IMG/VR virus record: IMGVR_UViG_3300028840_007026
Coordinates: 1-64,000 of that record
Origin: a virus
DNA: 64,000 nt
Strand: one strand, 5' to 3'
In this document: in pieces, positions 6,204 through 35,510 of the stretch
Layout of the letters: every line of letters starts with the position of its first letter
How positions within the stretch are numbered: the stretch's first letter is position 1
Notes under the pieces: model-generated
Told to the model about the DNA's origin: nothing
Database searches by the model: none
What the model saw: only the letters and a program-made list of their open reading frames with translations
Program-made: the position numbers and the translations under genes

Positions 6204-6348
6204 TTTTTTCTCCTTCGTTGACGTTAGTCATTGCTTCCCTAAATGATTTGAAAAATGCGAAACTTCCGACTCTGACTACTATGTAAAAGAAAATTAATCC
6301 AATGACAATACTCATGCCGTAACCAGCAATTTGTATAAGTTTATCCAT
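6187..6348 (-). CDS. Small single-TM protein (53 aa; absent from ORF track)
   Basis: MDKLIQIAGYGMSIVIGLIFFYIVVRVGSFAFFKSF...; GAGG RBS; fills the gap between genes. Confidence 0.6.
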   Translation of the reverse strand: MDKLIQIAGYGMSIVIGLIFFYIVVRVGSFAFFKSFREAMTNVNEGEKNVEKK

Positions 6349-23015: not shown

Positions 23016-24419
23016 TCATATCCATTTTTGTTCCATGTAAATCTGAATTCGTTGCACGGTATGTTCGGCTAAGAAACGATATCCGTCGAGAAAATCGACT
23101 AAAGTAATTTTACTTTTCCCTACGGATGTTCTCAATCCTCTTCCCATTGCTTGTAGGATAATTCGCTCTGCTTTCATTCCATGTGCTAATATTATCTTGT
23201 TCAACGATGGTATATTCACCCCTTCCCGCCAAACTCTCGAACAAATTACTACTGGAATTTTTCGTTCCTTCAATTTGTTTTTAATTTTTGTTCTCACCTC
23301 CTTATCTGTGGCACCATAAACAAACGGAACTTTTATCCCTTTTAATCTTAACATATGTTTCAGGTTTTCTCCATGCCGCGTGTTTTCTATGATTACAAGA
23401 ACTGTATGCTTTTTCTTGACAGCTTTTAAAACTTCGGCAACAATCAACTCATTGCGATATTTGTTATTTGTAATCCCCTCATCGTACATTCCTTTGTAAC
23501 TTCTACCAGCTTTCTCAACGACAGTATGTTCCAGTGGAACTGGTAGTAGTTTAACCTCTGGCTTCGCAATGATACCTTTCCTAATTCCTTGCTGCATGCC
23601 GAGTTCCGCGATTATTGGCCCGAAAAAACCTTCACAAATTAGTCTTTCTTTTCCTTTTACTGGAGGAGTAGCACTCAACCCAATTTTAACTGGAGACAAA
23701 TTGTATTCCATAGTTTTGCCGTATTGGGATTTTTTACTTGTTACTTTATGACATTCGTCTACAATTGTGACGTCAAAAAAATCGCACCATTCGGTAGGTG
23801 AGTACTTTGAAAATGTTTGGATTGTGGAGACAACAATAGGATTTTTAGTTTTTTTTATTTTACGGAAGGAAGGTTTGTATCCATCACCGAGTGCAAATAC
23901 TTTTTGCTTTCCTGGTAATAGATTTATTTCTTCGATAGTTTGTGAGAGGAGGTCCTTCGTATGACATAGGAATAAACGAGGTGAGTTTCTATATAGTGAG
24001 AAAATGCCGAGGGCGATAATTGTCTTGCCAGTGCCAGTGGGAAACTTAATTATGCCTCTTGAGAGCCTTCTAACGGCTCTGATGGCTCGTTTCTGGTCAC
24101 GGCGAAAGGTTATGCCTTTTAAACTTGGTCGGCTGTTAGATGGCCTGAGAATTTCGAGATTGCTCCGATCAATAGACAAAAAAAATCCGGTCCGTTCCGC
24201 GTACTTTTCAATACGTGGAAGCAGACCGGACAGTAGTGTTCCACCGGAGTTTTTACTACCGGTGATTAAATGTTGTTTGGTGACCGTGTTCTTGCCACCA
24301 AATCTCCCCCTCCTCCAACTGACGTTTTCATACTCAAGGCAAGGAAGTAGTAATTCTCTTGCTTCTTTATTTGCCTTGGAATGAATACTGTCAAGTGCGG
24401 TTACAAGTGCTTTACCCAT
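23016..24419 (-). CDS. Superfamily 2 helicase (UvsW-like)
   Basis: PTGTGKT, DECH, SAT, EGVNIP, QAMGRGLR. Confidence 0.9.
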   Translation of the reverse strand: MGKALVTALDSIHSKANKEARELLLPCLEYENVSWRRGRFGGKNTVTKQHLITGSKNSGGTLLSGLLPRIEKYAERTGFFLSIDRSNLEILRPSNSRPSLKGITFRRDQKRAIRAVRRLSRGIIKFPTGTGKTIIALGIFSLYRNSPRLFLCHTKDLLSQTIEEINLLPGKQKVFALGDGYKPSFRKIKKTKNPIVVSTIQTFSKYSPTEWCDFFDVTIVDECHKVTSKKSQYGKTMEYNLSPVKIGLSATPPVKGKERLICEGFFGPIIAELGMQQGIRKGIIAKPEVKLLPVPLEHTVVEKAGRSYKGMYDEGITNNKYRNELIVAEVLKAVKKKHTVLVIIENTRHGENLKHMLRLKGIKVPFVYGATDKEVRTKIKNKLKERKIPVVICSRVWREGVNIPSLNKIILAHGMKAERIILQAMGRGLRTSVGKSKITLVDFLDGYRFLAEHTVQRIQIYMEQKWI

Positions 24420-24742
24420 TCTTGTATTTCCCTTATTATTTGCTGAGCAACCCAATTGCTTTTGAAAACCTTTGCGAGATGTTTGTGAATACTTCTTACA
24501 GTAACTTCATGCCTACGTGGAGTAGCAATTAAATCGACTATTTCATTCGGGGAATTGAGAATAATATCAATCAACTCTTTTGCTTCGTTACTCAATCTCT
24601 CCCATGCTTGAATCTTTATTAATGCCTTTTCTGCGGATATTTCTTTCGCCGGTAGTATTTCATCTTCCGGATCAGCAGAACAATCATTTTTAAAAATCTC
24701 ATATGCTACTCTATAATCGTTTTCACTAAGTTTTATTGGCAT
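24401..24742 (-). CDS. Hypothetical protein, weakly sigma region 4-like
   Basis: AWERLSNEAKELIDII helical pattern. Confidence 0.5.
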   Translation of the reverse strand: MPIKLSENDYRVAYEIFKNDCSADPEDEILPAKEISAEKALIKIQAWERLSNEAKELIDIILNSPNEIVDLIATPRRHEVTVRSIHKHLAKVFKSNWVAQQIIREIQEWVKHL

Positions 24743-24755
24743 TTCTGGTTTTCCG

Positions 24756-25250
24756 TTATCGCCTCCTTAATGTTCTTTTTTTCTCTGTGGGGCGACGTTT
24801 TAATGTTCTCGTTTTTGGTAAGAGTACATCAAATGCCTTTGTTAAGGGGGATTTATTTTCTTTTCCATCTCTTCTTTTTAAAACCCTTTTTTGATTCCCC
24901 GGATCGGCTATTTCTTCTTTTCTCAGTAGCCTCCTCGGGGTTACAATAGGGACCAAATCGAGAAAATACCTCTCGATGATTGGTCTGATTTCTTTATCAA
25001 ATTGTCTACAGTTTTTACACAACTCCCATGATAGTAAGTTTTTCTCATTCCTCCTTCGTGCTATACATTGGTTGTAATTGAGTCTGCAACCAAAGTTATC
25101 ACAGTTGAAAATCGTTGGATTGAAGTACTTGCATTGCTTACTGTCAGCTTGTACTTTTTTCTTTGACGCGATGCACCGCTTAGTGTAGCCGTTGGATTCC
25201 CTTTTTACTACATCAGACCGGCACCACCAATGGCAGTTGGAACATGACAT
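24756..25250 (-). CDS. Cys-rich putative Zn-binding protein with a basic repeated tail
   Basis: Many Cys; three xLKRR-type repeats; AGGAG RBS. Confidence 0.65.
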   Translation of the reverse strand: MSCSNCHWWCRSDVVKRESNGYTKRCIASKKKVQADSKQCKYFNPTIFNCDNFGCRLNYNQCIARRRNEKNLLSWELCKNCRQFDKEIRPIIERYFLDLVPIVTPRRLLRKEEIADPGNQKRVLKRRDGKENKSPLTKAFDVLLPKTRTLKRRPTEKKRTLRRR

Positions 25251-25299
25251 TCTCTTCTCCTTTTTAAAAGGAAAAGCTCCGAATGACTCGGAGCTCTTG

Positions 25300-25328
25300 A
25301 GTATACCAAATTGTGCTATAAAAGTAAA
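25300..25328 (-). promoter_or_regulatory. Sigma70-type promoter for the replication operon
   Basis: TTTACT-17 nt-TATACT with an extended TG; followed by a gagctccga...tcggagct hairpin and RBS. Confidence 0.65.
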
Positions 25329-25336
25329 GAGGCGCT

Positions 25337-26461
25337 CTATTCGGTGCTTTCCTGGTTTTCAATGATATCGTAAAAGTCATTTTCGGAAGACTTTTGCCTG
25401 ATGATCATAACCGGAAAACCATCTTTGACCAGTTTCCTTATTACTGCTTTCAATTTTGCAGTGGTATCCCTTCGACTGCAATTGAATTGCTTTTCAACTG
25501 CTGAACACAATTCACCGTAGTAAACACCTTCGCTCATCATTTCAGAGATGAGTGCGTGAATGCTTTTCTTCCGGTAGCCGAAGCGGTTCAGACCGTAGCG
25601 GTTGTTTTCTCCGCGACGTTTCAGAACCCTTTCTTCCTTTTGCGAAGTTTCTTCCTTCTGTGGAGTTGGAGTTCTCCGTTTGAGAATTCTCGGAGCAGGA
25701 GTATTCGGATCAACTTTCATGTCAAGGTCAATGCCGTGACACTTGTTAGCTGCCTTGAATGCCGCTGCACAAGCGGATACGAAATCCTTCGGTGGAGTTT
25801 CGAATTTGTTCTCCCATCGGATTTTCATATTGTTGAGAAATTTGATTGCTGTCGGAACTACTTTTGCAGCAACACGATTGAATACTGTCGTTTTGGTTGG
25901 GATGTGAATGATACGTCCGAATTCATCACCGTCAGTTACATAGTAGGAATAGGAAAATTGCTTCCCTTCTACCGGACCGACTTCGTTCGACTTGGTACCT
26001 TCCTTCAGGAACTCTTTGTAGTTCTCTTCGGATAATTTCTTTTTGCTCACTTCTTTGGTACCAGTGGAATCCAGTTCATCTACCCGTTTGATAACGTTTT
26101 TAATCTTGCCAGACAGTTCATCCAGCTTTTTGATAATCAGGTCTGCGATAAACGGGTCCAGGTCCTGTTTTGGAGAGCCTTCAGGAGCCTCTTCAGGTTC
26201 CCTTTCGGGAGGCCTTTGGTTATGGTTGTCGGCTTCCGGTTTGCTTTCAGGATCTGCTTTCCCAGCTTGAGCTCTTGCCAATATTGCTCGCTTATGGTCA
26301 GCATACCGTTGACACTTCGAACAGGTGATTTCTTCCGGACTGGCTTCGATTGGTTTGAGTAATCTTCTACCGTCGCATCTTGCAACAACCAAACCATCCA
26401 GCATTTTACTGTAATGGATTACTTCGCCTTTGGTTGTTTTACCATACTTTGCATCAGCCAT
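25337..26461 (-). CDS. Multidomain hypothetical protein (N-terminal Zn motif, C-terminal HTH-like)
   Basis: H..C..CSKC; C-terminal GYRKKSIHALISEMMSEG; AGGAGG RBS before MADAKY. Confidence 0.7.
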   Translation of the reverse strand: MADAKYGKTTKGEVIHYSKMLDGLVVARCDGRRLLKPIEASPEEITCSKCQRYADHKRAILARAQAGKADPESKPEADNHNQRPPEREPEEAPEGSPKQDLDPFIADLIIKKLDELSGKIKNVIKRVDELDSTGTKEVSKKKLSEENYKEFLKEGTKSNEVGPVEGKQFSYSYYVTDGDEFGRIIHIPTKTTVFNRVAAKVVPTAIKFLNNMKIRWENKFETPPKDFVSACAAAFKAANKCHGIDLDMKVDPNTPAPRILKRRTPTPQKEETSQKEERVLKRRGENNRYGLNRFGYRKKSIHALISEMMSEGVYYGELCSAVEKQFNCSRRDTTAKLKAVIRKLVKDGFPVMIIRQKSSENDFYDIIENQESTE

Positions 26462-26567
26462 TTTTAATCCTCCTTTGAGTGGGTTGAGTAAATACGTCAG
26501 TGTTAACAATATAACACGTTTCGCATTAATTTAGTACGCCAAACTATTTTGGAATACTAAATTAATG

Positions 26568-26585
26568 GGGGAGCCGAAGCTCCCC
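26568..26585 (-). terminator. UUCG hairpin after the last early gene, followed by a 13-bp inverted repeat (26524-26567)
   Basis: GGGAGC TTCG GCTCCC; cattaatttagta...tactaaattaatg. Confidence 0.5.
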
Positions 26586-26592
26586 AATTGGG

Positions 26593-26823
26593 TTAAACAT
26601 AGGGACTTCTCAACGGGACGTGAAGTCGAGACTTGCTACGCTTGGACGGATCCCTGCGAACTTCTCGAGCAGTTGCCATATAATGCTCTGTGATATCTCT
26701 CCAATGGTGGAAACAAAAAAGATGTTTTTGGGTCGGTTTCCGATCTGCGACGTTTTTCTTAATGGGTTTTCCACAGATCTCACATCGGCGATTGCTCATT
26801 TCGGTGTACGGAACCTTTTTCAT
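26593..26823 (-). CDS. Small Zn-finger protein
   Basis: CEICGKP...CFHH; AGGAG RBS. Confidence 0.65.
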   Translation of the reverse strand: MKKVPYTEMSNRRCEICGKPIKKNVADRKPTQKHLFCFHHWRDITEHYMATAREVRRDPSKRSKSRLHVPLRSPYV

Positions 26824-27167
26824 TTCTTCTCCTTAATTAGATATGACATTGAAAGTACTGCTTCCTTAATCGCTTTATGGCCGAGTTCGTAAAAGTAATA
26901 GAGTACAACGAACGTCTCATACGAACCTTGTTGAAGTGGAATATAATCGCCAATTAAAGAACGGAGAATGTCGGGATTGTCATATGCATCATCTGCTGCA
27001 CAATCCCTTTCAGAACCGTAACCACGATGGTTGAAATCCTCATCTACTGCTACCATATCGTAAACTGCTGACTGGAGCCAGTTGATGTAGTTCTCAACAC
27101 CATCTTTGATTTGTTCTTCTGTGAGCTGCTTCATGGTTTCATAGTTTTGCAATTGTAGATCTACCAT
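26820..27167 (-). CDS. Hypothetical early protein (start MVDLQL; the ORF-track extension overlaps the ribozyme)
   Basis: AGGAGG RBS upstream of ATG 27167. Confidence 0.7.
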   Translation of the reverse strand: MVDLQLQNYETMKQLTEEQIKDGVENYINWLQSAVYDMVAVDEDFNHRGYGSERDCAADDAYDNPDILRSLIGDYIPLQQGSYETFVVLYYFYELGHKAIKEAVLSMSYLIKEKK

Positions 27168-27190
27168 AATAATCCTCCTATAAGTAGTAA

Positions 27191-27259
27191 AGGTTGCCTC
27201 ATCAGTAATAGGGTTCCTATCCCTATCAGACGAGGGGAGCAATTTCCCCTCGTTTCGGC
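27191..27259 (-). ncRNA. Type II hammerhead ribozyme HH1
   Basis: GCC-GAAA-CGAGGGGA(loop)UCCCCUC-GUC/UGAUAGGG(AUAGGAA)CCCUAUUA-CUGAUGA-GGC; pseudoknot AGG/CCU; cut predicted at 27229/27228. Confidence 0.92.
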
Positions 27260-27441
27260 TACAATTTTTTCATGATCCAATCAGCATGAGTATATTGGTA
27301 ATAATGCATCATGTGGACCAATTGGTTGTGAATCTCCATAACTCCGGCTGGACAATGATCAGGGCTTTTCCATGTTGCTTCAATTTCTTCTATCTTTCCC
27401 ATAAAGGTTTTTCTTTCTACCAGCATTATTCTTTCGTTCAT
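27259..27441 (-). CDS. Hypothetical early protein (~60 aa)
   Basis: GAGGAG RBS; the stop codon overlaps HH1 stem II. Confidence 0.6.
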   Translation of the reverse strand: MNERIMLVERKTFMGKIEEIEATWKSPDHCPAGVMEIHNQLVHMMHYYQYTHADWIMKKL

Positions 27442-27445
27442 TTTT

Positions 27446-27778
27446 TTACTCCTCATTTATAGAAGGTAGGTCTCTAATACTGTCCCACAAATTTCTCTTT
27501 TCCAGTTCGATAGCATTATGAATAATTCTTTCATAACACTTGATGAAACGTTTGAACTTGGAAAGATCACCGTTTTCCCATGCGTAGACGATATGCATCG
27601 AAATTCCAACGAGCATCAATAACTGCTCATGTACTGTCGATTGAGTCTTTGCAATCTTGAGATGATGGTAGCAAAGATCGTTTGGAATGTCTGTATCTTC
27701 TTTCCATTTTCTTTTTTCACAAACTTTTTCTTTAACCGGGACTTTCCTTGCCTTCCTTTTTGGTTTTTCTACTTTCAT
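27446..27778 (-). CDS. Hypothetical early protein (start MKVEKP)
   Basis: AGGAGG RBS downstream of HH2. Confidence 0.7.
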   Translation of the reverse strand: MKVEKPKRKARKVPVKEKVCEKRKWKEDTDIPNDLCYHHLKIAKTQSTVHEQLLMLVGISMHIVYAWENGDLSKFKRFIKCYERIIHNAIELEKRNLWDSIRDLPSINEE

Positions 27779-27805
27779 AATAAATCCTCCTGTTAGTTGG
27801 TAGTT

Positions 27806-27870
27806 ATGAGCAAATCTCATCAGGCATGGTAGCTCATTTCCATGCGACTCCCCGAAGGGAGTTTCGAATT
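27806..27870 (-). ncRNA. Type II hammerhead ribozyme HH2
   Basis: UC-GAAA-CUCCC(UUCG)GGGA-GUC/GCAUGG(AAAUGAGCUA)CCAUGC-CUGAUGA-GA; 6-bp pseudoknot AUGAGC/GCUCAU; cut at 27846/27845. Confidence 0.92.
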
Positions 27871-27961
27871 AAAGGTTAAACATGAGAATAGTAAAAATGT
27901 AGATGACAACGAGAATAAGAAGACCAGCGAAGATCTCAAGAATAATTTCCAGATCCTTCAT
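27869..27961 (-). CDS. 30-aa hydrophobic membrane peptide (absent from ORF track)
   Basis: MKDLEIILEIFAGLLILVVIYIFTILMFNL; ATGA overlap with the upstream gene; stop abuts HH2. Confidence 0.6.
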   Translation of the reverse strand: MKDLEIILEIFAGLLILVVIYIFTILMFNL

Positions 27962-28266
27962 GTTGTTTCCCTTTCGTTAGAAATTTTGGCAATTTCCCTG
28001 AACGTGATTGGGTTCACATACATCTTGCAAAGTGGGGAGTATTTGTCTTTCGTGCCCTTTAAAGCAATTTTAAGGCATGATTGACAGTAATTCAAATCGT
28101 CGTAATATTGAAACTGCTTCACAAATGTTTTCTCAACCGGTTGGACGTAATAACATCCACAAGCGATTGCACATCCGCATAAGGAATACTCTTCTCCAGT
28201 TTCTTCATCCGTTTCGAACAAATGAATCTTTCGGGTCAACCAATACTTCATTTGATGGTATAACAT
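27958..28266 (-). CDS. Hypothetical early protein with Cys/His motif
   Basis: H..SLCG..CQSC; AGGAGG RBS. Confidence 0.65.
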   Translation of the reverse strand: MLYHQMKYWLTRKIHLFETDEETGEEYSLCGCAIACGCYYVQPVEKTFVKQFQYYDDLNYCQSCLKIALKGTKDKYSPLCKMYVNPITFREIAKISNERETT

Positions 28267-28575
28267 TTAGCCTCCTATCACTCGACCGTAAGTAGTAATT
28301 AGTTCCCTTCCCACCGGAGTTTCAGTTGAAATCATAGAATCCTTGGAAAGGCAGTAAATACATTCCGTTTTTTTCGGTAGACAAATCCTCAATGCGGAAT
28401 AGACTACTGCTATTGTGACGGTTATGACTGGGATGATGATAGTAAACCAGAACATGATAAACGAGGCTGGTACAACAACAAACCAAGCGAGAATTTCGGT
28501 CCATATATCACCGAATCGCTCGTTCCTTGGTTTCCCGATTACTCCACAATTCTTGCAAATTAGTTCCTGTGACAT
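28267..28575 (-). CDS. Membrane protein with a split Zn ribbon flanking hydrophobic segments
   Basis: CKNC - hydrophobic stretch - CIYC. Confidence 0.7.
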   Translation of the reverse strand: MSQELICKNCGVIGKPRNERFGDIWTEILAWFVVVPASFIMFWFTIIIPVITVTIAVVYSALRICLPKKTECIYCLSKDSMISTETPVGRELITTYGRVIGG

Positions 28576-28603
28576 GATAAATCCTCCTGTTAAGTAGTAA
28601 TAA

Positions 28604-28672
28604 AGGGTACCTCATCAGTGCGTAGTTCCCTAATCTACGCAGACGGGAGAAAAAAATTTCTCCCGTTTCGGC
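28604..28672 (-). ncRNA. Type II hammerhead ribozyme HH3
   Basis: GCC-GAAA-CGGGAGAAA...UUUCUCCC-GUC/UGCGUAG(AUUAGGGAA)CUACGCA-CUGAUGA-GGU; pseudoknot AGGG/CCCU; cut at 28642/28641. Confidence 0.92.
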
Positions 28673-29542
28673 TTAGACGTCCAGTTTACGTTTTACCTTG
28701 AAGTCAGGAACAGCTTTAATTTGTTTTGCGATCTTCTCCATCTTTTTCGAAACTTCTCCACGGAAGTCCTCGCTGTTCCTAAGTTTGTCGGCAGAGGTTT
28801 TCTTCATTTGGATGCGAAGGGATCTCATTATGGATTTCATTTTCTTCCCATCAATATTGTCTTTCCAGAGATCATCCCACTTGCCAAGAAACTTATCAAG
28901 GGCATTAATCGTTCCAGCGTTGATCTTGTCATTGTCGCACTGTTCTTTTAATTTCTCAATGCGAGCGAGCAACGTGCTGCCAATGATATTGACAGCCATC
29001 ATCTCCATCTCATTTGCCATGGATTGAAACTTCTCCCTTTCCCTTTTGTACATCGAAGCAGTTAGTATACCTGCATCTTTATCGGGAAGTTGAAACTGGA
29101 AAAATCTCCAAAAGAAATCATGTTTTGCTCTGATTGAATCTGCCGAAGGGTAGTTTGTTTCATCGTAGTACTCGGGGTACTTGGTTTTAAAGCTACGCTT
29201 TAATGACCCCATTTTCTTAACAAGCTTATCCGTGAGTTCAGCGTATTCGGCTTTGAGTTCAGTAAACACCTTGTCCAAATACTCAATCTTGTGTTTGGGT
29301 ACCCAGAACACTCCGTCGACAGGAAACGGCATGGAACTATTGAGAAGTTCCCTTTTTGTTGCCCGTTTTACTGCGAGAAGATCGTCGATGATAGTTCTAT
29401 CATCTACCAGATCCTGGACACCGCGAACGATTTCAGACGGAACATCAGGTCCCAGCTTGTCTTTACTCAGTTTGGTGTAAGCTCCCCAACGGCTAACTTT
29501 CAATTGACAAAGGACGCCTTCATTTAATTGTTCGACTTTCAT
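28673..29542 (-). CDS. Helical early protein, DUF3150-like
   Basis: LKVSRW, PFPVDGVFWVP, YPSADSIRAKHDF pattern; family call from memory. Confidence 0.55.
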   Translation of the reverse strand: MKVEQLNEGVLCQLKVSRWGAYTKLSKDKLGPDVPSEIVRGVQDLVDDRTIIDDLLAVKRATKRELLNSSMPFPVDGVFWVPKHKIEYLDKVFTELKAEYAELTDKLVKKMGSLKRSFKTKYPEYYDETNYPSADSIRAKHDFFWRFFQFQLPDKDAGILTASMYKREREKFQSMANEMEMMAVNIIGSTLLARIEKLKEQCDNDKINAGTINALDKFLGKWDDLWKDNIDGKKMKSIMRSLRIQMKKTSADKLRNSEDFRGEVSKKMEKIAKQIKAVPDFKVKRKLDV

Positions 29543-29567
29543 AAATCCTCCTATAAGTTAGTAGTAA

Positions 29568-29628
29568 AAGTTGCCTCATCAGATAACAAGTTCTTATCTT
29601 GCTATGACCGCCCGAAGGCGGTTTCGGC
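29568..29628 (-). ncRNA. Type II hammerhead ribozyme HH4
   Basis: GCC-GAAA-CCGCC(UUCG)GGCG-GUC/AUAGCAAG(AUAAGAA)CUUGUUAU-CUGAUGA-GGC; pseudoknot AAG/CUU; cut at 29606/29605. Confidence 0.92.
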
Positions 29629-30035
29629 TAATATTCCAATGTAATCAGAATATCCCCATTGGTGTCCTTCTCAGTAAATACACCCTCAATTTCCGTGTAG
29701 TCAATGTTCTTCAATACTACACTGGAATTGTACTTTTGGAGCGTCAACCCGAGCAAATCCATTGTTGAACATTCCTCACCGTATGGTCCTATTACTGTAC
29801 GATCGCTACCAAAGTGATCATACCTAATACTACCGTCTGGACTTATTGCTAACGGGTATGCCCAGCCTTTGAGATGGACCTCTGCGATTGCATTGTTAAC
29901 ACTATTATGACCATAGTGTTTAACTGCAAAGGCTTTCCCACCCAAGTACTTTACTCGATGACCGAGTTCTTTACAGATGGTACAGAAAGTTTCAACGTCA
30001 GTCACTTTTTGTGCATAGCGAGTTGTATGGCTCAT
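29628..30035 (-). CDS. DUF1257/Ycf35-like protein
   Basis: MSHTT..KVTD, GWAYP, YDHFG, LQKY, GDILITL. Confidence 0.7.
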   Translation of the reverse strand: MSHTTRYAQKVTDVETFCTICKELGHRVKYLGGKAFAVKHYGHNSVNNAIAEVHLKGWAYPLAISPDGSIRYDHFGSDRTVIGPYGEECSTMDLLGLTLQKYNSSVVLKNIDYTEIEGVFTEKDTNGDILITLEY

Positions 30036-30082
30036 TTTTATTTCCTTTTTAGTTTGGTAGTAAAATGTTTTTTGAGAATTAA

Positions 30083-30295
30083 TCATCCGCACCATTCACT
30101 CGGAAGACCATTTGAGATTGTTTCTTTGTTTTCCCAGTAGCTATCCTTATAGTTACGCTGCTGGTCATTACCACCGAACAACTTGTCAAGGAATGCGGTT
30201 GCTTCTTCACAGCTACCGCCTTTAAAGTTGAATGCTTCGACACGTACTGAACCATTTTTCCCTAAAGTGATTTTTACTTTACGTTTTTCTTCCAT
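30083..30295 (-). CDS. DUF2997-like protein
   Basis: ITLGKNGSVRVEAFNFKGGSCEEATAFL. Confidence 0.8.
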   Translation of the reverse strand: MEEKRKVKITLGKNGSVRVEAFNFKGGSCEEATAFLDKLFGGNDQQRNYKDSYWENKETISNGLPSEWCG

Positions 30296-30323
30296 TTTAT
30301 CCTCCTATAAGTTAATTGTGTTA

Positions 30324-30389
30324 TGGCTTGCCTCATCAGTGCTACCGTAGCCAGTGGTAGCAGACGGGCCTGAATCGGCCCGTTTCGGC
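30324..30389 (-). ncRNA. Type II hammerhead ribozyme HH5
   Basis: GCC-GAAA-CGGGCC(GAUUCA)GGCCC-GUC/UGCUACC(ACUGGCUAC)GGUAGCA-CUGAUGA-GGC; pseudoknot UGGCU/AGCCA; cut at 30363/30362. Confidence 0.92.
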
Positions 30390-30392
30390 GAG

Positions 30393-31805
30393 TTATTTAT
30401 CGATGCGACGTCTTCCCGGCCGTTTAACTGTTCGCGTTTCCATAACGGTTTCAGCGGGTATCGTTCGGCCTTTTGCCCAATCCCTTAGTCTTGCAATGCT
30501 TTCCCCTGCCGTTTTTGCTTGTGGAATAATGGCTTTCGAAGCCTCAATAAGCGATACTCCTCTCATGTCGGCAATGTGAACCAATGCTTCGATTTCAGCG
30601 CCGGAGAAGTCAACAAGTGAAGGTGTTTTTTGTTTTGGGAGATTCGCATTTACCCTGTAGTGTTCCAGAATAGAACTTGCAACTTTTTGGGAAGGGTAGT
30701 CGATGAAAAAGGGAGATGAATCCCAGCGACCAGGACGCAAATACTCGTTTGGAATTCCCTCAAAGCTATTTGCTGTCCCAACAATGTAAACCCCTTTCGG
30801 ACGGTTTTGCAGAAAGTCTAACCACCGACCAGTCGCACGTCGTGTTGTACCACTATCGAGCGAACCATCGCTATTACTACCAGCGAACTGCTTTTCGAAT
30901 TCGTCGATGAGAACTACACATTCACCAATTGAACAAATGATTTCGATCGCAGTATTGATATTCTGGTCGGTTTCCCCTTGAAACTTAGAAAATAACGAAC
31001 CCATATTGATGGAAAGACCGAATTTCTTAGTCTCACCGACAATTGCTTTCATTAGGGTAGTCTTACAACATCCCGGAGGGCCGATCGTAATAATGCCTTT
31101 TGCTTTTGGATTATCGATCGTCGAAAGGATAAACTGCTTTATGTTATCGTATCCAACCACATCCTTGAACGTAAGATTTCCATCGAGAACATCGAGAAAA
31201 CCGGTTTTCCGTATTGCTTGAGCCTTGTGCTCGTTGATCGTCTCAATACTAAAACCTTTTCCGTTCGACTCAACTAATGAAAGCGCGAGAACGTTATCAA
31301 GTTCACTTCGACTCAACCCCTTACAACTGTTAGCTACTTTCGTTATTTCTTCGGGTGAAAGGTTTTTGTCTGCCATTTCTTGAATCGCGGTAGTAATTTC
31401 AGGACCGTTAGGAAGTGGAAGATCAATAAGAACATACTCTTTTTCCAGCTCCACCGGTAGTTTTTTTGAATGGGACACGCAGATAATTGCTTTCCCCTGA
31501 GATGACCAGAGTTTAGCATTGTCTTTTATGTGCTGAATGACCTGAGGCTTTTCAGCAAACCAGTGCCAATTGTAAAGAAAAATAACCGTTAATTCTTCGG
31601 CCTGATCCAGAACCTGAAGCGGTTCTCTCGGGTCGTTTCCTTTTGCCAAGGACCATTCCCTGACGGAGTACTTCCCGCCATCTTTACGTTCAAAGTTTTT
31701 AATGGTTTCATACACCTTTTCCCTTACGAAGTCATGCTCAGAAGTTCGGAGCCAAAACGTTGAAAAACCTGCACGTAGATAATTAATGATCTTGTCAGCT
31801 TTCAT
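30393..31805 (-). CDS. Ycf46-like AAA+ ATPase
   Basis: LPVELEK, GPPGCCKT, IDEFEK, TAN, LRPGRWD, FSGAEIE, LRDWAKGR. Confidence 0.85.
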   Translation of the reverse strand: MKADKIINYLRAGFSTFWLRTSEHDFVREKVYETIKNFERKDGGKYSVREWSLAKGNDPREPLQVLDQAEELTVIFLYNWHWFAEKPQVIQHIKDNAKLWSSQGKAIICVSHSKKLPVELEKEYVLIDLPLPNGPEITTAIQEMADKNLSPEEITKVANSCKGLSRSELDNVLALSLVESNGKGFSIETINEHKAQAIRKTGFLDVLDGNLTFKDVVGYDNIKQFILSTIDNPKAKGIITIGPPGCCKTTLMKAIVGETKKFGLSINMGSLFSKFQGETDQNINTAIEIICSIGECVVLIDEFEKQFAGSNSDGSLDSGTTRRATGRWLDFLQNRPKGVYIVGTANSFEGIPNEYLRPGRWDSSPFFIDYPSQKVASSILEHYRVNANLPKQKTPSLVDFSGAEIEALVHIADMRGVSLIEASKAIIPQAKTAGESIARLRDWAKGRTIPAETVMETRTVKRPGRRRIDK

Positions 31806-31830
31806 AAATCCTCCTATAAGTTAGTAGTAA

Positions 31831-31897
31831 AGGTTACCTCATCAGTACCCAAGTTCCTATCTTAGGTAAACGGGAGAAGTATTTCTCCCGTTTCGGC
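31831..31897 (-). ncRNA. Type II hammerhead ribozyme HH6 (GUU cleavage triplet)
   Basis: GCC-GAAA-CGGGAGAA(AUAC)UUCUCCC-GUU/UACCUAAG(AUAGGAA)CUUGGGUA-CUGAUGA-GGU; pseudoknot AGG/CCU; cut at 31869/31868. Confidence 0.88.
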
Positions 31898-32221
31898 TTA
31901 TGCTGTTTCAACTCTGTATCTTGGATCGTATTCCCAGTCACTACTGTCTGGGAACAACCTCAAGAATATTTCGTAAGCTTTGTAACCGGAAGTTCTCCGG
32001 TTGTATTCTTTTTTGATTTCTTTCATGCTACGAATACCATACTCGGAAAACAGCCTTTCGAATTCGTTTTTTACTCCCTTGAAATAACCTCTGTACATAT
32101 CCTGGAAACACTCTCCTGGTGCACCCCACAGAGACATATCATTATCCATTGCTTCTATGTCTTCCGCCATTTGATAGAATTTACTCAGGATCATTCCAAA
32201 TGATTTTTTCCAATCTTTCAT
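31898..32221 (-). CDS. Hypothetical early protein (start MKDWKK)
   Basis: AGGAGG RBS downstream of HH7; stop abuts HH6. Confidence 0.7.
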   Translation of the reverse strand: MKDWKKSFGMILSKFYQMAEDIEAMDNDMSLWGAPGECFQDMYRGYFKGVKNEFERLFSEYGIRSMKEIKKEYNRRTSGYKAYEIFLRLFPDSSDWEYDPRYRVETA

Positions 32222-32241
32222 AATTCCTCCTTTGTGGTTGT

Positions 32242-32304
32242 TGACTTGTCTCATCAGCGGTCAGGTTGTCACCCTGTACCGGACTCCCCAAAGGGAGTTT
32301 CGAC
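32242..32304 (-). ncRNA. Type II hammerhead ribozyme HH7
   Basis: GUC-GAAA-CUCCC(UUUG)GGGA-GUC/CGGU(A)CAGG(GUGACAA)CCUGACCG-CUGAUGA-GAC; stem II covaries (GUC/GAC); pseudoknot UGAC/GUCA; cut at 32282/32281. Confidence 0.92.
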
Positions 32305-32516
32305 TATGCTACTTGAAGATCGAGCGAAGCGTAATCAACACGAGCCCAAAACTCGTCCCATGATTCGTCTTCGTTTAACGGTTGAGAGTAGTAAACACAT
32401 TTCCCGTTTTCTTCAATTTCAACATGCCACTCGTTCCACTTCTCAAGGTATCTCAGGATAAAGGTTTGTCCGTCGATAATTTCTTTTTCTTTGATTGAGC
32501 GATCGATCTTTTTCAT
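32304..32516 (-). CDS. First early gene, small acidic protein (70 aa)
   Basis: TAAGGAGG RBS; the stop overlaps HH7 stem II. Confidence 0.7.
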   Translation of the reverse strand: MKKIDRSIKEKEIIDGQTFILRYLEKWNEWHVEIEENGKCVYYSQPLNEDESWDEFWARVDYASLDLQVA

Positions 32517-33150
32517 AATGCCTCCTTAATAAGATTCATATATTTGCCTGTCCCAAACACTTTAAAGCCTTCAAACGGCTCCTGAGGGCTCCACTCAAAG
32601 GCTTTAAGGTGGAGGCGAATATAAATACTCGCCTCCGGGTAGGCTCAACTTAAAAGGAGGAGGATATATTGCATAGCTGCGACAGTACTGAGAATATTCC
32701 TGTCGGTTTTCCAAATGATTCCGACTTGGTTTTACTTAACTTATTCAAACCAATTGTTCCTTGTCGGCACGTTTTTTTTCAAATGGGTTTCACTATGGCT
32801 TGCCAGCACATATTCAGCATAGTTTCAACCGGTGGCCGGTGGTTTTCTATGCTGCCTGGTATCAGAAGTTCGAGATTTTTTAATCTTGCGTTATCAACGG
32901 AATGTTTTTTTCTACCATATCCGAATCCGGATTTTTATCCGGCCGTTTTTTTGTTTCCTCGGAAACGTTTTCGGTCATGCAATTTTACTCACATGGAAAA
33001 TGCGAACTTAGGTAGTAGTTCGATCCCGTTTTTTCAACCAGTATTTTAAAAGAAAAAAGTCGCAATATGTTTTGTTTTATCAACAGCCTTTCGGTCATTG
33101 AATAGCTGAACGCGACCAGTGCAGCGGGTGAACATGTTTTAAAAGAACAT
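32517..33150 (-). ncRNA. Candidate long structured leader / ncRNA of the early operon
   Basis: No credible sense ORF; many hairpins with A-rich linkers; long-range atattgc/gcaatat pair. Confidence 0.45.
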
Positions 33151-33205
33151 GTTCTTGATATCACAATAAATTAAAAAACACAACATCTTTTTTTATTTTT
33201 TTTGA
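33143..33205 (-). promoter_or_regulatory. Putative early promoter with UP element and a palindromic operator
   Basis: A-tracts; TTGTGT-17 nt-TATCAA with TG extension; 14-bp palindrome AAGAACATGTTCTT at 33143-33156. Confidence 0.5.
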
Positions 33206-33304
33206 ATAGGTGATCGTACGGAAAATAACACAATTCCAGCCATTTATATTTGATGTCAGGTTACCCCTAAAAATATTTTTTTGCACAAGTTAACATAATC
33301 CCTA

Positions 33305-33332
33305 TTGAATTAAGCCTGAAAATAGCTATATT
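33305..33332 (+). promoter_or_regulatory. Putative rightward promoter for packaging/structural genes
   Basis: TTGAAT-16 nt-TATATT. Confidence 0.4.
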
Positions 33333-33576
33333 ACAGCCAACCTACCTGGTAGCGGGTAACCCCTATCTGGCCTATGTTTTACTACCCCTTGAGACCAGTT
33401 AGAGCACAATACTATTTCGGCCTGAGAGAGACTATGTGTCAGTTCGCCAAGGGGGTTTTCGGCAAATCCTCATTTCGGTGATAAGGCAAATAAGGAAGAT
33501 AGATATTGCCTTATGGAAAGGAGTGTTTTAATGGGTCACTTTATAGTAGTAAACCTTTAGATGTGAGAACTTGGAT

Positions 33577-34113
33577 ATGGCAAGACCGGGAAGACAACTA
33601 AGGAGAAGGCATACAGGGAGACAAAGAAACTTTACTCCACGAGTAAGGACTTTGTTGTATGCTGCAATTCGAGCAGATCTACCATATAAAAGGGCTTGTG
33701 AGATCTGTGGAGTCAACTACCGGAATTTCAATTATTGGATGCAAAGGGGAAAGACGGATCCAGAACATAGTATATATACACAGTTCAGAAGATATATCCG
33801 TAGGATTGAGGCGAGAAAAGAAATCCAACTCCTTGAAGTAATTGATAAGGTAGCAGTCGGGAATTACAAGATAAGGGAAATGGAGATATCCTTTTCTCCT
33901 GATAAGGGACGCTCCTGGAAGACGAAGACGAAGATAATCAGGCCTGACTGGAAGGCAGCTGCATGGCGATTGGAGAGAAAATACAGAGATGACTATGGAC
34001 AGTTTGATCCGACGGTGATTACTTCCAAGTCCCCTGAAGAAATAGCTCAGGAGATAAGGGATGCAACACTTGAATTGGAAAGATCTGTTCCAACGGAGGA
34101 GGAAATAGCATGA
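33577..34113 (+). CDS. terS: Terminase small subunit
   Basis: HTH (ACEICGVNYRNFNYW) and DWKAAAWRLERKY; coupled to TerL. Confidence 0.75.
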   Translation: MARPGRQLRRRHTGRQRNFTPRVRTLLYAAIRADLPYKRACEICGVNYRNFNYWMQRGKTDPEHSIYTQFRRYIRRIEARKEIQLLEVIDKVAVGNYKIREMEISFSPDKGRSWKTKTKIIRPDWKAAAWRLERKYRDDYGQFDPTVITSKSPEEIAQEIRDATLELERSVPTEEEIA

Positions 34114-35510
34114 GCATTAATCCCCCTTCTATGAATTCTATTCTCAACGTGACGCCATTGCGATATCACCCTGTACAAGCGAAACTATGGAGAAGCAAAA
34201 CCCGTTTTGATATAGTATATGCAGGGAGAAGATCAGGCAAAACGGAAATAAAAGGAAAGAGACAAGCAGCAAAAGCAGCATTAGAAGGAAACGAAGGTAG
34301 ATTCCCTAATTGGAGAGGATTTGTCTCAGCTCCTACACGTGATCAGGCCAAAACTATCTACTGGGAAGACCTTAAGAGATTACTACCTCCCCCGCTGAGA
34401 GCACGACCTGCCAGCGAATCCAAGTTAACCTTATATGTCTATAACAAGTACGGAACGATTTCAGAACTCCACGTTTTAGGAATGGACAGGCCGGAACGTG
34501 TTGAGGGTAGTCCTTGGGACTGGGGATTACTTGATGAATATGGGAATATGAAACCGGAAACATGGGGAGCACATGTACGTCCGGCTCTATCAGATAGGAA
34601 AGGGAAGTGTTCGTTTATTGGTGTACCGGAAGGGAGAAATCATTATTATGATCTGGTTAAAGATGCTGAAGCGAGTACTTTAGTTGATTCCAGCGGGAAT
34701 AAGGTATGGTCCACATATCATTGGTTGAGCGAAGATATATTAGATGCAGATGAAATCATTCAGGCAAAACAGGATCTTGATGAACTGACATACGAGCAGG
34801 AGTATTGTGGATCGTTTGTAGTCTTCTCAGGTCTGGCATACTATAAGTTCAATTCCCACTTGCATACGTCTGGATGCAAAAAGCATTACGATCCATCTTC
34901 TCCGCTAATCTTTTGCTTCGACTTCAACGTTGCACCGGGAACTGCGAGTGTACTGCAAGAAATGTCGGATGTAGATGAATGGCCTATTTCGCAGGTTCCT
35001 ATTGTCGGTCATACGATTACTTCCCAGATTGGAGAAGTTTATATAAAACGAAACTCCAACACTGAGAAGGTATGCGATAAACTGATCGATGACTGGGGGG
35101 ATCATACAGGACTTGTTTTTATATATGGGGATGCGACTGGCGGTGCTGGTGGTTCTGCGAAGGTGAGAGGATCTGACTGGGATCTGGTGAAGCAGAAACT
35201 CTATCCACAATTTGGGAATCGGCTTGTATTCAAAATAAGAAAAAGTAACCCCAGAGAACGACGTAGAATTAATTGCGTGAATTCTCGTCTCATGTCCATG
35301 ACAGGCAATATCCATTATCAGGTAGATAAATCTTGTGTAAACACAATAAAGGATTTTGAGGGAGTAAAGATCCTGGAAGGTAGTGTTGGAGAAATTGACA
35401 AGAAATCAGATCCAATGCTTTCCCACTTAACGGACGGAATTGGCTACTATATCGAACGTGAGTTCCCGATTATTAAGTTGCAGCCACAGACGTCCAAATT
35501 TTGGAAGTAA
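34110..35510 (+). CDS. terL: Terminase large subunit
   Basis: AGRRSGKT, APTRDQAK, LLDE, EQEY, DFNV, HLTDGIGY. Confidence 0.95.
   Translation: MSINPPSMNSILNVTPLRYHPVQAKLWRSKTRFDIVYAGRRSGKTEIKGKRQAAKAALEGNEGRFPNWRGFVSAPTRDQAKTIYWEDLKRLLPPPLRARPASESKLTLYVYNKYGTISELHVLGMDRPERVEGSPWDWGLLDEYGNMKPETWGAHVRPALSDRKGKCSFIGVPEGRNHYYDLVKDAEASTLVDSSGNKVWSTYHWLSEDILDADEIIQAKQDLDELTYEQEYCGSFVVFSGLAYYKFNSHLHTSGCKKHYDPSSPLIFCFDFNVAPGTASVLQEMSDVDEWPISQVPIVGHTITSQIGEVYIKRNSNTEKVCDKLIDDWGDHTGLVFIYGDATGGAGGSAKVRGSDWDLVKQKLYPQFGNRLVFKIRKSNPRERRRINCVNSRLMSMTGNIHYQVDKSCVNTIKDFEGVKILEGSVGEIDKKSDPMLSHLTDGIGYYIEREFPIIKLQPQTSKFWK

What the first reader, a model, noticed from the sequence alone, without database searches (positions are those of the whole stretch)
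27191..32304. Array of seven type II hammerhead ribozymes punctuating a phage early operon
Seen: seven intergenic elements on the coding (minus) strand share the order stem II 5' - GAAA - stem III hairpin - GUH - stem I hairpin - CUGAUGA - stem II 3'. The catalytic core is invariant. The stems differ in sequence but stay paired. Each element starts at or within a few nt of the upstream stop codon and ends about 15-25 nt before an AGGAGG. Established: this is the hammerhead consensus, and isolated type II hammerheads are known from bacterial, phage and metagenomic DNA. Inference: the early transcript cuts itself, without host RNases, into pieces of 413, 1506, 757, 964, 796 and 617 nt between predicted cut sites. 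Each piece gets a 5'-OH plus 5' hairpin and a 3' hairpin plus 2',3'-cyclic phosphate. That would act as a natural insulator that standardises and stabilises each mRNA, analogous to RNase III processing of T7 early RNA. I do not recognise a described seven-copy system of this kind.
Basis: partly seen in the sequence, partly recalled or inferred. Interest (0 to 1): 0.95.

Follow-up and report, generated by a model that had tools for sequence, protein, structure and literature searches.

The report
Seven hammerhead ribozymes between phage genes
An uncultured 81-kb phage carries seven well-formed self-cutting hammerhead RNAs between the first genes of its replication arm; this layout has been known in phages since 2011, so it is a clear but ordinary example.

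Summary
Seven type II hammerhead motifs lie on the minus strand at the stated places, each in a gap between genes. All seven have an intact catalytic core, paired stems that covary, and a covarying loop I/3'-tail pseudoknot. The whole 81,355-bp phage record holds exactly seven. A model built only from relatives' copies finds the same seven (44-69 bits; next best 14). Rfam scores one above its cut-off and four just below, and does not report two.

No RNA or cleavage data exist, so cutting, the single transcript and 'early' timing are inferred.

The idea is not new. Perreault et al. 2011 described clustered hammerheads flanking phage genes, proposed cutting of long transcripts into gene-length mRNAs, and showed cleavage for three arrangements.

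Relatives found through the neighbouring AAA ATPase carry 2 to at least 15 copies. This scan has also noted such arrays on other DNA (107 notes, at least 93 genomes).

What is added here: related phages without hammerheads fill the same junctions with a permuted pistol-like motif or long conserved hairpins. That suggests the junction device itself is what selection keeps.

Verdict: a new member of a known kind.

The parts
32248..32304 (-). HH1, a type II hammerhead. The pseudoknot tail runs on to about 32242. Predicted cleavage is after C 32282. It lies between a 70-aa ORF (32516-32304) and a 107-aa ORF (ATG 32221).
   Evidence: Rfam 28.6 bits. R2 49.5 bits. Pseudoknot of 4 bp. Stem I has a bulged A.
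31836..31897 (-). HH2. Predicted cleavage is after U 31869 (H17 = U). It lies directly upstream of the AAA ATPase gene (ATG 31805).
   Evidence: Rfam 33.1 bits. R2 68.8 bits. Pseudoknot of 3 bp.
30330..30389 (-). HH3. Predicted cleavage is after C 30363. It lies between the ATPase gene (stop at 30393) and the DUF2997 gene (ATG 30295).
   Evidence: Rfam 38.8 bits, above the cut-off of 37. R2 60.8 bits. Pseudoknot of 5 bp. The minimum-energy fold is the hammerhead fold.
29573..29628 (-). HH4. Predicted cleavage is after C 29606. It lies upstream of the DUF3150 gene (ATG 29542).
   Evidence: Rfam 31.7 bits. R2 56.4 bits. By my reading its pseudoknot is 3 bp (AAG with CUU), a change on both sides against AGG with CCU in HH2 and HH7. 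The script scored it 3 bp through another pairing (UAA with UUA).
28609..28672 (-). HH5. Predicted cleavage is after C 28642. It lies upstream of a 102-aa ORF (ATG 28575).
   Evidence: R2 63.2 bits. Not reported by Rfam. Stem III of 10 bp. Pseudoknot of 4 bp.
27815..27867 (-). HH6. The pseudoknot tail runs on to about 27806. Predicted cleavage is after C 27846. It lies upstream of a 110-aa ORF (ATG 27778).
   Evidence: R2 44.0 bits, the weakest of the seven. Not reported by Rfam. Stem II has only 2 bp. Pseudoknot of 6 bp.
27196..27259 (-). HH7. The pseudoknot tail runs on to 27191. Predicted cleavage is after C 27229. It lies upstream of a 115-aa ORF (ATG 27167).
   Evidence: Rfam 34.6 bits. 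R2 69.3 bits. The minimum-energy fold is the hammerhead fold, z = -4.2.
27167..32247 (-). Seven standardised leaders inside this span, one after each hammerhead. Each has a G-poor spacer of 16-23 nt, then AGGAGG, then 4-7 nt, then ATG. The predicted 5' UTR after cutting is 60-67 nt.
   Evidence: 3 G in 138 spacer bases, against 22.6% G on this strand, and all 3 lie in the pseudoknot part. Repeat families D4-D7.
26820..32516 (-). The genes cut apart by the array: 70 aa | 107 aa | AAA ATPase 470 aa | DUF2997 70 aa + 135 aa | DUF3150 289 aa | 102 aa + 102 aa + a frame of about 30 codons | 110 aa + 60 aa | 115 aa.
   Evidence: Pfam PF00004 8.7e-18, PF11211 3.4e-08, PF11348 7.9e-11.
32530..33560 (.). 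About 1 kb with no convincing gene, between the leftward (replication) arm and the rightward (terminase and structural) arm. It is the presumed site of the promoter for the array.
   Evidence: The promoter scan was not informative: 28 sites against 19.7 +/- 5.0 in shuffles.

Best explanation
These are seven functional type II hammerhead ribozymes in the first 5.3 kb of the leftward (replication) arm of a complete 81-kb tailed phage.

Proposed mechanism. As the polycistronic RNA is made, each ribozyme folds once its 3' strand (CUGAUGA, the stem II 3' strand and the pseudoknot tail) has emerged. It then cuts after H17.

In the type II layout the two products are held together only by the 2-3 bp of stem II. 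They should therefore part at once, and religation is unlikely.

The upstream product ends with its stop codon, a few nucleotides, the GC-rich stem III hairpin and a 2',3'-cyclic phosphate. The downstream product begins with a 5'-OH on the first paired base of the stem I hairpin. It then has a uniform 60-67 nt leader: hairpin, pseudoknot, G-poor spacer, AGGAGG, ATG.

The likely use is to turn one transcript into up to eight units of one to three genes each. Each unit would have defined, structured ends and a context-independent ribosome-binding site, so stability and translation of each unit would be uncoupled from its neighbours and from host endonucleases.

Shown here: motif, stems, covariation, positions and conservation in the lineage. 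Inferred: cutting in vivo, a single transcript, and any effect on stability or translation.
For: - Core and helices are intact in 7 of 7 copies.
- Stems covary among the seven copies: 14 of 19 pairs change on both sides, and 0 of 500 shuffles reach that. The same holds among 39 distinct copies from relatives: 95.5% paired against 62.2% in shuffles, and 17 of 19 pairs change on both sides.
- Each loop I pairs with its own 3' tail better than with other copies' tails. For the window, 6 of 5000 shuffles reach the observed sum. For all 36 distinct loop-and-tail combinations, 0 of 5000 do.
- The genome holds exactly seven copies. A model built from relatives only finds them at 44-69 bits, next best 14.4.
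- Placement is regular in 7 of 7 copies: the stop codon ends 2-6 nt before GAAA, AGGAGG follows 16-23 nt after stem II, and the predicted leaders are 60-67 nt. Across 45 copies examined, 40 have an upstream ORF stop within 25 nt and 41 have a Shine-Dalgarno site plus start codon.
- The lineage keeps the feature. With model R1, 48 copies, all on the gene strand, lie in 7 of 10 ATPase-linked loci. Rfam scores 36 of these above its cut-off. Further copies are in L143 (11), L144 (3) and L142 (2).
- A hammerhead sits directly 5' of the ATPase gene in 10 of 10 hammerhead-bearing loci where that junction is visible. L008, L009 and L010 are near-identical phages, so these are not ten independent cases.
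- Relatives without hammerheads have other repeated structured elements in the same junctions.
- From the literature (passages read): type II hammerheads with this pseudoknot cleave fast, tandem prophage hammerheads cleave in vitro, and one triple arrangement cleaves in E. coli (PMC3088659). Three type II hammerheads near phage-like genes cleave in Desulfovibrio vulgaris cells (PMC8782182).
Against: - There are no RNA or biochemical data for this phage or its relatives.
- Only 1 of 7 copies passes Rfam's cut-off, and 2 of 7 are not reported by Rfam at all.
- Stem II has 2-3 bp, and the minimum-energy fold predicts it in only 3 of 7 copies.
- Three copies have pseudoknots of only 3 bp. In one construct of Perreault et al., shortening the pseudoknot from 6 to 4 bp lowered the rate about 20-fold.
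- Two complete relatives (records G007 and G008) and locus L148 have no hammerhead, so the device is dispensable or replaceable.
- No promoter or terminator was identified. One transcript and 'early' timing are assumed from gene order alone.
- The benefit (stability, insulation) rests on analogy.
Confidence: 0.7

Rival explanations
1. Conditional or graded cutting. The ribozymes are real, but their role is to set different expression levels or timing. Copies of different speed (pseudoknots of 3 to 6 bp, stem II of 2 or 3 bp) would cut at different rates. Cutting might also depend on whether a ribosome sits on the stop codon that abuts stem II. The aim would be regulation, not uniform insulation.
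For: The stop codon ends 2-6 nt before GAAA in 7 of 7 copies, so a terminating ribosome would cover the 5' part of the ribozyme (inference from recalled ribosome footprint size). Pseudoknot length varies from 3 to 6 bp, and pseudoknot length changes the rate by orders of magnitude in vitro (PMC3088659). Relatives keep copies with a U4-to-C core change in the same slot in three loci of closely similar phages. Perreault et al. raise regulated cleavage for phage hammerheads.
Against: All seven cores in the window are consensus. The leaders are strikingly uniform at 60-67 nt, which suggests standardisation more than grading. No ligand-binding or sensor domain is visible.
Confidence: 0.15
2. DNA-level role. 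The repeated unit of ribozyme plus ribosome-binding site mainly serves as a short homology that lets gene cassettes be shuffled or acquired. Alternatively it spreads as a selfish element, and RNA cutting is secondary.
For: The order of conserved units differs between relatives, and the break points lie at the junction elements. The DUF2997 plus 135-aa pair lies after the ATPase gene in the window, L011, L144 and L148 but before it in the other eight loci compared. The 375-aa gene also moves. Copies within one genome can be nearly identical: L009 and L010, and HH2 and HH4 share an 89%-identical 65-nt stretch. Small genes between the ribozymes (five small ORFs of 70-112 aa tested; one more matched only L006) had no match in the 12 loci compared.
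Against: Break points must be intergenic in any case. Stems differ in sequence but stay paired, which DNA homology does not need. The catalytic nucleotides and the pseudoknot are kept. Unrelated RNA devices occupy the same slots in relatives, which points to an RNA-level function.
Confidence: 0.08
3. Ligation or circularisation. The pieces between two hammerheads carry a 5'-OH and a 2',3'-cyclic phosphate. These are the ends used by RtcB-type ligases (recalled) or by the hammerhead's reverse reaction. The pieces would be joined into circular or spliced RNAs.
For: The end chemistry follows from hammerhead cleavage. Six internal units are flanked on both sides. Perreault et al. name this possibility.
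Against: Perreault et al. looked for spliced or circular products and found none (their data not shown). In the type II layout with a 2-3 bp stem II, the two ends of one unit belong to different ribozymes and nothing brings them together. No ligase gene was seen among the array genes.
Confidence: 0.04
4. The motifs are chance look-alikes or decayed, inactive relics.
For: Six of seven copies are below Rfam's cut-off and two are unreported. One of 100 shuffles gave 7 matches to the loose pattern.
Against: All seven are on one strand, in gene gaps, with full stems, covariation and a pseudoknot. An independent model scores them 44-69 bits, against 14 for the next best hit.
Confidence: 0.02

Closest known systems
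Type II hammerhead ribozyme (Rfam RF02276; Perreault et al. 2011, PMC3088659)
   Same: The core is the same: CUGAUGA, GAAA, the A15.1-U16.1 pair and H17. Stems I and III are capped and stem II is open and short. A pseudoknot joins loop I to the tail just 3' of stem II. The setting is bacterial or phage DNA.
   Different: Nothing essential differs. Stem III loops are longer than the Rfam consensus in some copies. Three pseudoknots have 3 bp, whereas the paper says most type II examples have four or more. Only one copy reaches Rfam's cut-off.
Clustered hammerheads flanking genes in prophages, such as the triple arrangement around ardA in Agrobacterium tumefaciens, and Clostridium scindens and Azorhizobium caulinodans (Perreault et al. 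2011)
   Same: Several hammerheads lie on one strand and bracket single genes or short gene blocks of a phage transcript. The proposed role is the same: cutting long transcripts into gene-length mRNAs.
   Different: This case has seven copies in 5.3 kb of a free (direct-terminal-repeat) phage genome, all of type II. Each abuts a stop codon and is followed by a standardised leader. The passages I read name tandem and triple arrangements; I could not see their Figure 3 or supplements, which may show larger clusters.
RNase III processing of phage T7 early mRNA (recalled textbook knowledge; no call)
   Same: Works alike: a polycistronic early transcript is cut at structured intergenic sites into units of one or a few genes that end in hairpins.
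   Different: T7 uses a host protein enzyme on long double-stranded hairpins. Here the RNA would cut itself and leave a 5'-OH and a cyclic phosphate. A relative (L013) has 25-bp hairpins in the same slots that might be such protein-cut sites; this is untested.
RiboJ-type synthetic ribozyme insulators (PMC6206723; only the title and the start of the abstract were seen, in the listing)
   Same: Works alike: a hammerhead-derived self-cutting element upstream of a ribosome-binding site removes the upstream context and leaves a 5' hairpin.
   Different: RiboJ is engineered, is used singly after promoters, and has a different hammerhead topology (recalled). The present elements are natural, of type II, and placed between genes.
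Type II hammerheads shown to be active in Desulfovibrio vulgaris by cyPhyRNA-seq (PMC8782182)
   Same: The same ribozyme type, next to phage-like genes. Two of the three lie about 300 nt apart. Cleavage was seen in cells and in vitro.
   Different: There are only three copies, in a bacterial chromosome. One relative of the present phage lies on a contig binned with a Desulfobacteraceae genome, which is a weak hint of a related host group.

Membership tests
Hammerhead ribozyme, type II (RF02276) | Conserved core: C3 U4 G5 A6 N7 G8 A9, G12 A13 A14, the A15.1-U16.1 pair, and H17 not G | tested here: met
   7 of 7 copies have CUGAUGA and GAAA. The A-U pair is present in 7 of 7 (columns 10 and 33). 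H17 is C in six copies and U in one.
Hammerhead ribozyme, type II (RF02276) | Three helices around the core, with standard pairs next to the core (the criteria listed in the methods of Perreault 2011) | tested here: met
   Stem I has 4-8 consecutive pairs; HH1 has 8 with a bulged A. Stem II has 2-3 pairs and stem III 6-10. The pairs next to the core are standard in 7 of 7. RNAfold predicts stems I and III in 7 of 7 and stem II in 3 of 7.
Hammerhead ribozyme, type II (RF02276) | Type II topology: stems I and III closed by loops, stem II open | tested here: met
   The order stem II 5' strand, GAAA, stem III hairpin, UH, stem I hairpin, CUGAUGA, stem II 3' strand is found in 7 of 7 copies.
Hammerhead ribozyme, type II (RF02276) | Pseudoknot between loop I and the tail 3' of stem II | tested here: met
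   3-6 Watson-Crick pairs in 7 of 7 copies. Own tails beat shuffled tails: 6 of 5000 shuffles reach the observed sum for the window, and 0 of 5000 for all 36 combinations. A first, looser version of the test discriminated poorly.
Hammerhead ribozyme, type II (RF02276) | Score at or above Rfam's gathering cut-off (37 bits) | tested here: inconclusive
   1 of 7 copies is above (38.8 bits). Four are below (34.6, 33.1, 31.7, 28.6). Two were not reported at E up to 10. In relatives, 36 copies pass.
Hammerhead ribozyme, type II (RF02276) | Mg2+-dependent self-cleavage after H17 | not testable with these tools
   No RNA run holds this DNA. This needs in vitro transcription.
Clustered phage hammerheads that process polycistronic RNA (Perreault 2011) | Several hammerheads on the coding strand flanking single genes or short gene blocks of a phage or prophage | tested here: met
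   Seven copies bracket units of 1-3 genes. The phage identity rests on terminase, portal, tape measure, DNA polymerase and helicases, and on a virus record with direct terminal repeats.
Clustered phage hammerheads that process polycistronic RNA (Perreault 2011) | Products of the expected sizes from the native polycistronic RNA | not testable with these tools
   Only predicted sizes are available: 413, 1506, 757, 964, 796 and 617 nt.

The most novel reading that the evidence does not exclude
In this phage lineage the gene junction is a modular slot for a cutting or processing device followed by a standard ribosome-binding site, and unrelated RNA devices can fill it.

The same junctions, for example directly 5' of the AAA ATPase gene and of the DUF3150 gene, hold different elements in different relatives:
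- type II hammerheads in the window and at least seven relatives;
- a pistol-like motif whose first hairpin has moved to the 3' side, in L014;
- a 25-bp imperfect hairpin in L013;
- two hairpin families with conserved internal loops and covarying stems in L147;
- other hairpins in L006.

If this is right, selection acts on a break (or a defined end) at the junction, not on the hammerhead as such. At least one of the unclassified junction motifs would then be a new self-cleaving ribozyme or a permuted form of a known one. Others would be sites for host RNases. This would be a natural swap experiment bearing on the unresolved function of bacterial and phage self-cleaving ribozymes.
Probability: 0.3. 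Interest if true: 0.7.

Novelty: new member of a known kind. Interest (0 to 1): 0.35.

Why it matters
What small self-cleaving ribozymes do in bacteria and phages is still called largely elusive (review PMC6765202, passages read). This phage adds no new principle, but it is a clean case:
- seven consensus ribozymes;
- uniform predicted leaders of 60-67 nt;
- a complete genome;
- a set of relatives in which the same junctions carry hammerheads, a pistol-like motif, long hairpins or nothing.

That set makes the processing hypothesis directly testable with reporter constructs and in vitro transcription. It also supplies natural parts of the kind that synthetic biology builds by hand as ribozyme insulators.

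Tried and rejected
- RNA evidence: no RNA holder was listed for 27100-32600, only DNA runs. I therefore did not use read laying.
- Cultured relatives: the best match to the ATPase in 50,697 phage records is 28.9% identical, from Mycobacterium phages. There is no tractable close relative.
- Promoter and terminator scan of 24000-34500: 28 promoter-like sites against 19.7 +/- 5.0 in shuffles, and 15 terminator-like sites against 9.1 +/- 3.2. No site is usable as evidence, and the host's promoter type is unknown.
- First pseudoknot test, with a 12-nt tail: own mean 3.70 against swapped mean 3.02, too permissive. I replaced it with a 9-nt tail and a permutation test.
- My strict regular-expression parser found no copy in L011 and L012. 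Their copies have an extra U after CUGANGA, as the model alignment shows. I took the counts for those loci from the covariance-model searches instead.
- Rfam at E up to 10 did not report HH5 and HH6.
- Widening the pistol-like motif of L014 with a degenerate pattern: 11 stretches matched. Only the source genome had several matches (4), and the 10 others look like chance matches without a P3 hairpin. The pseudoknot of that motif therefore could not be tested for covariation.
- Pattern for L147 motif A: only the source contig matched.
- Pattern for L147 motif B: it was too loose.
- Literature search for a permuted pistol: no listed title or abstract start describes one. I saw the listing only, so this is weak evidence of absence.
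- Searches for DUF2997, DUF1257 and DUF3150 gave nothing relevant to ribozymes.
They may show larger clusters than the 'triple' named in the text.
It is not a census.

Full report
WHAT IS THERE

The window is the first 64 kb of an 81,355-bp virus record with direct terminal repeats. Genes run leftward from about 32516 to position 1. They include an AAA ATPase, two helicases, a DnaB-like helicase and a DNA polymerase. Genes run rightward from about 33571: terminase, portal and tape measure. About 1 kb between the two arms, 32530-33560, has no convincing gene.

The finding covers the first 5.3 kb of the leftward arm. The genes there are mostly small and unknown. They include the ATPase (PF00004), a DUF2997 protein and a DUF3150 protein.

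A loose hammerhead pattern matches 7 times, against 1.74 expected, and all matches are on the minus strand. A parser that demands all three helices gives, for 7 of 7 copies, the type II order with stem III of 6-10 bp and stem II of 2-3 bp. Stem I gives 4-8 consecutive pairs, and HH1 has a bulged A. H17 is C in six copies and U in one.

The cut sites are 32282, 31869, 30363, 29606, 28642, 27846 and 27229.

Among the seven copies, 14 of 19 pairs change on both sides while staying paired. Cells are 93.4% paired against 64.4% in shuffles, and 0 of 500 shuffles reach either value. That alignment was fitted to the model, which favours the structure.

Each loop I is complementary to the first bases after stem II over 3-6 bp. 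Swapping tails between copies destroys the match: 6 of 5000 shuffles reach the observed sum. By my reading, HH4 pairs AAG with CUU in the register where HH2 and HH7 pair AGG with CCU, which is a change on both sides. The script scored HH4 at 3 bp through a different pairing.

RNAfold predicts stems I and III in all seven copies and the short stem II in three.

INDEPENDENT SCORING

Rfam's type II model (cut-off 37 bits) gives 38.8, 34.6, 33.1, 31.7 and 28.6 bits for five copies. It does not report HH5 and HH6, even at E up to 10 on a 1.6-kb stretch.

My first model, R1, was built from the seven copies themselves, so its scores are circular. I therefore built a second model, R2, from 48 copies found in related phages. 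Rfam scores 36 of those above its cut-off.

R2 finds the same seven copies at 44.0-69.3 bits over the whole genome. Nothing else scores above 14.4 bits. There are thus exactly seven, and all look genuine. HH6 is the weakest.

ARCHITECTURE AROUND THE RIBOZYMES

The upstream stop codon ends 2-6 nt before GAAA in 7 of 7 copies, so it abuts or overlaps the stem II 5' strand.

After the stem II 3' strand comes a 16-23 nt spacer that is almost free of G: 3 of 138 bases, against 22.6% G on this strand, and all three lie in the pseudoknot part. Then come AGGAGG, 4-7 nt, and ATG. The predicted leaders after cutting are 60-67 nt long.

No other repeated intergenic element occurs in the leftward arm. I found no minus-strand terminator-like site inside the array. 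The nearest lies at 26585-26568, about 600 nt beyond HH7, and it lacks a good U tract.

HOW IT MOST LIKELY WORKS

Hammerhead chemistry is established. It gives a 2',3'-cyclic phosphate on the upstream piece and a 5'-OH on the downstream piece. With this anatomy:
- The upstream piece ends one base after the stem III hairpin.
- The downstream piece starts on the first paired base of stem I.
- The two pieces share only the 2-3 bp of stem II, so they should separate at once.

From recalled knowledge of bacterial RNA decay, RNase E and RNase J favour 5'-monophosphate single-stranded ends, and 3' exonucleases are slowed by terminal hairpins. Such ends should therefore protect each unit. The G-poor spacer should keep each ribosome-binding site open whatever lies upstream. 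All of this is inference; nothing here measures it.

It is the idea of Perreault et al. [quoted passage not shown] They saw the expected products from three tandem arrangements in vitro, and from the A. tumefaciens triple arrangement in E. coli (passages read).

A 2019 review still calls the purpose undefined (passages read). Three type II hammerheads near phage-like genes cut in Desulfovibrio vulgaris cells (passages read).

RELATIVES

Searching IMG/VR with the ATPase gave 10 loci. A profile of the ATPases added 7 more.

With model R1, 48 hammerheads, all on the gene strand, lie in 7 of the first 10 loci:

| Locus | Copies |
|---|---|
| L015 | 11 |
| L007 | 9 |
| L009 | 8 |
| L010 | 6 |
| L012 | 6 |
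| L008 | 4 |
| L011 | 4 |

Among the new loci, L143 has 11, L144 has 3 and L142 has 2, while L147, L148, L151 and L152 have none.

Whole-record searches add four more copies beyond L015 in its 95-kb record, giving at least 15. They add five more at the other end of the L011 record, giving about 9.

A contig binned with a Desulfobacteraceae genome holds 3 copies next to a 47%-identical ATPase. Binning of phage contigs is unreliable, so this is only a hint of the host group.

Unrelated viral contigs also hold clusters. Among 80 loci picked by an exact pattern, L093 has 10 hits, and L088, L030 and L018 have 4 each.

Seven copies is therefore a middling array. Earlier notes of this scan report arrays of 10-33 copies on other DNA. 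I did not check those.

THE SAME SLOT, DIFFERENT DEVICES

The ATPase, DUF2997, 135-aa, DUF3150, 375-aa, 164-aa, 113-aa and helicase genes form a shared module whose order varies between relatives.

A hammerhead lies directly 5' of the ATPase gene in all 10 hammerhead-bearing loci where that junction is visible: the window, L007, L008, L009, L010, L011, L012, L015, L143 and L144. L008, L009 and L010 are near-identical phages, so these are not ten independent cases.

Relatives without hammerheads have other repeated elements in that slot and in the slot 5' of DUF3150, each followed by a standard ribosome-binding site.

- L014 has six copies of a motif that matches Rfam Pistol weakly: 29.1 and 27.1 bits against a cut-off of 34.5, with two of the six copies reported. 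The motif lacks the 5' hairpin. Instead it has a 3' hairpin whose stem covaries and whose conserved loop is complementary to the pistol pseudoknot strand. I reached this reading before seeing that note, but I could not test the pseudoknot, because I found no diverged copies.
- L013 has seven copies of a 25-bp imperfect hairpin with two compensatory pairs.
- L147 has two hairpin families with conserved internal loops. In them, 4 of 27 and 8 of 21 predicted pairs show compensatory changes. They have no Rfam match.
- L006 has other hairpins.
- L148 has no evident junction element.

This pattern supports an RNA-level function of the junction. It also shows that the hammerhead itself is replaceable.

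RIVALS

- Graded or translation-dependent cutting. For it: pseudoknots vary from 3 to 6 bp, the stop codon abuts the ribozyme, and relatives keep U4-to-C variants.
- A DNA-level role as a recombination linker. For it: unit order differs between relatives, and some copies within a genome are nearly identical. Against it: covarying stems and unrelated devices in the same slot.
- Circularisation. Perreault et al. found no such products (their data not shown).
- Chance or decay. The evidence above excludes this for practical purposes.

VERDICT

The novelty claim is wrong.

This is a new member of a known kind, and interest is modest. The lineage-wide exchange of junction devices is the part worth following up.

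Noticed in passing
L014 6491-11560 (IMG/VR record of 65,560 bp with direct terminal repeats): Six junction elements match Rfam Pistol only weakly (29.1 and 27.1 bits, cut-off 34.5). They lack the 5' hairpin. They carry instead a 3' hairpin with a covarying stem and a conserved loop complementary to the pistol pseudoknot strand, so they look like a permuted pistol layout. They sit in the same gene junctions as the hammerheads of the window.
   Followed up: partly
L013 4816-9812 (complete relative with direct terminal repeats, no hammerheads): Seven copies of a roughly 110-nt junction element. Its core is a 25-bp imperfect hairpin with two compensatory pairs, followed by a standard ribosome-binding site. 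It could be a site for a host double-strand RNase, or an unknown device.
   Followed up: partly
L147 2980-3063, 6897-6980 and 9634-9717; also 1607-1682, 2352-2391, 6236-6292 and 8450-8481: Two further junction hairpin families with conserved internal loops and covarying stems (4 of 27 and 8 of 21 predicted pairs with compensatory changes). They have no Rfam match, and one pattern scan found motif A only in its own contig.
   Followed up: partly
L011 and L012 (all hammerhead copies); L008 2685-2758, L009 6921-6994, L010 4776-4849, L015 10622-10709: Core variants in relatives. In L011 and L012 there is an extra U between CUGANGA and stem II, and N7 is C or A. Elsewhere there is a U4-to-C change (CCGAUGA), kept in the slot just 3' of the ATPase gene in three loci of closely similar phages. 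Their activity is unknown.
   Followed up: no
window 23016-31805 and loci L006-L015, L143-L148: A shared gene module (AAA ATPase, DUF2997, 135-aa, DUF3150, 375-aa, 164-aa, 113-aa, helicase) whose unit order is permuted between relatives. The break points lie at the RNA junction elements.
   Followed up: partly
L152 376-2548: A distant relative (ATPase 27% identical) has four tRNA genes on the gene strand upstream of the module. These could be another way to punctuate a transcript.
   Followed up: no
window 18220-18828: Three tandem 204-nt repeats (75-81% identical) inside the 367-aa ORF at 17949-19052, with GTC/GTCGTC-rich runs on the plus strand. That suggests an acidic repeat protein.
   Followed up: no
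window 26568-26585 (minus strand): A 7-bp GC-rich hairpin with a UUCG loop after the 76-aa ORF, about 600 nt beyond the last hammerhead. It may mark the end of the ribozyme-punctuated unit, though it has no good U tract.
   Followed up: no
L164 (contig of 83,343 bp in a Desulfobacteraceae metagenome-assembled genome): Three type II hammerheads next to a 47%-identical ATPase, one of them directly 5' of it. This is a weak hint that the host group is Desulfobacterota.
   Followed up: partly
L006 1617-11916: A 12-nt motif (CGCGAACTGGGA and close variants) recurs at least nine times, some in tandem and one in the junction 5' of the ATPase gene. Its nature is unknown.
   Followed up: no
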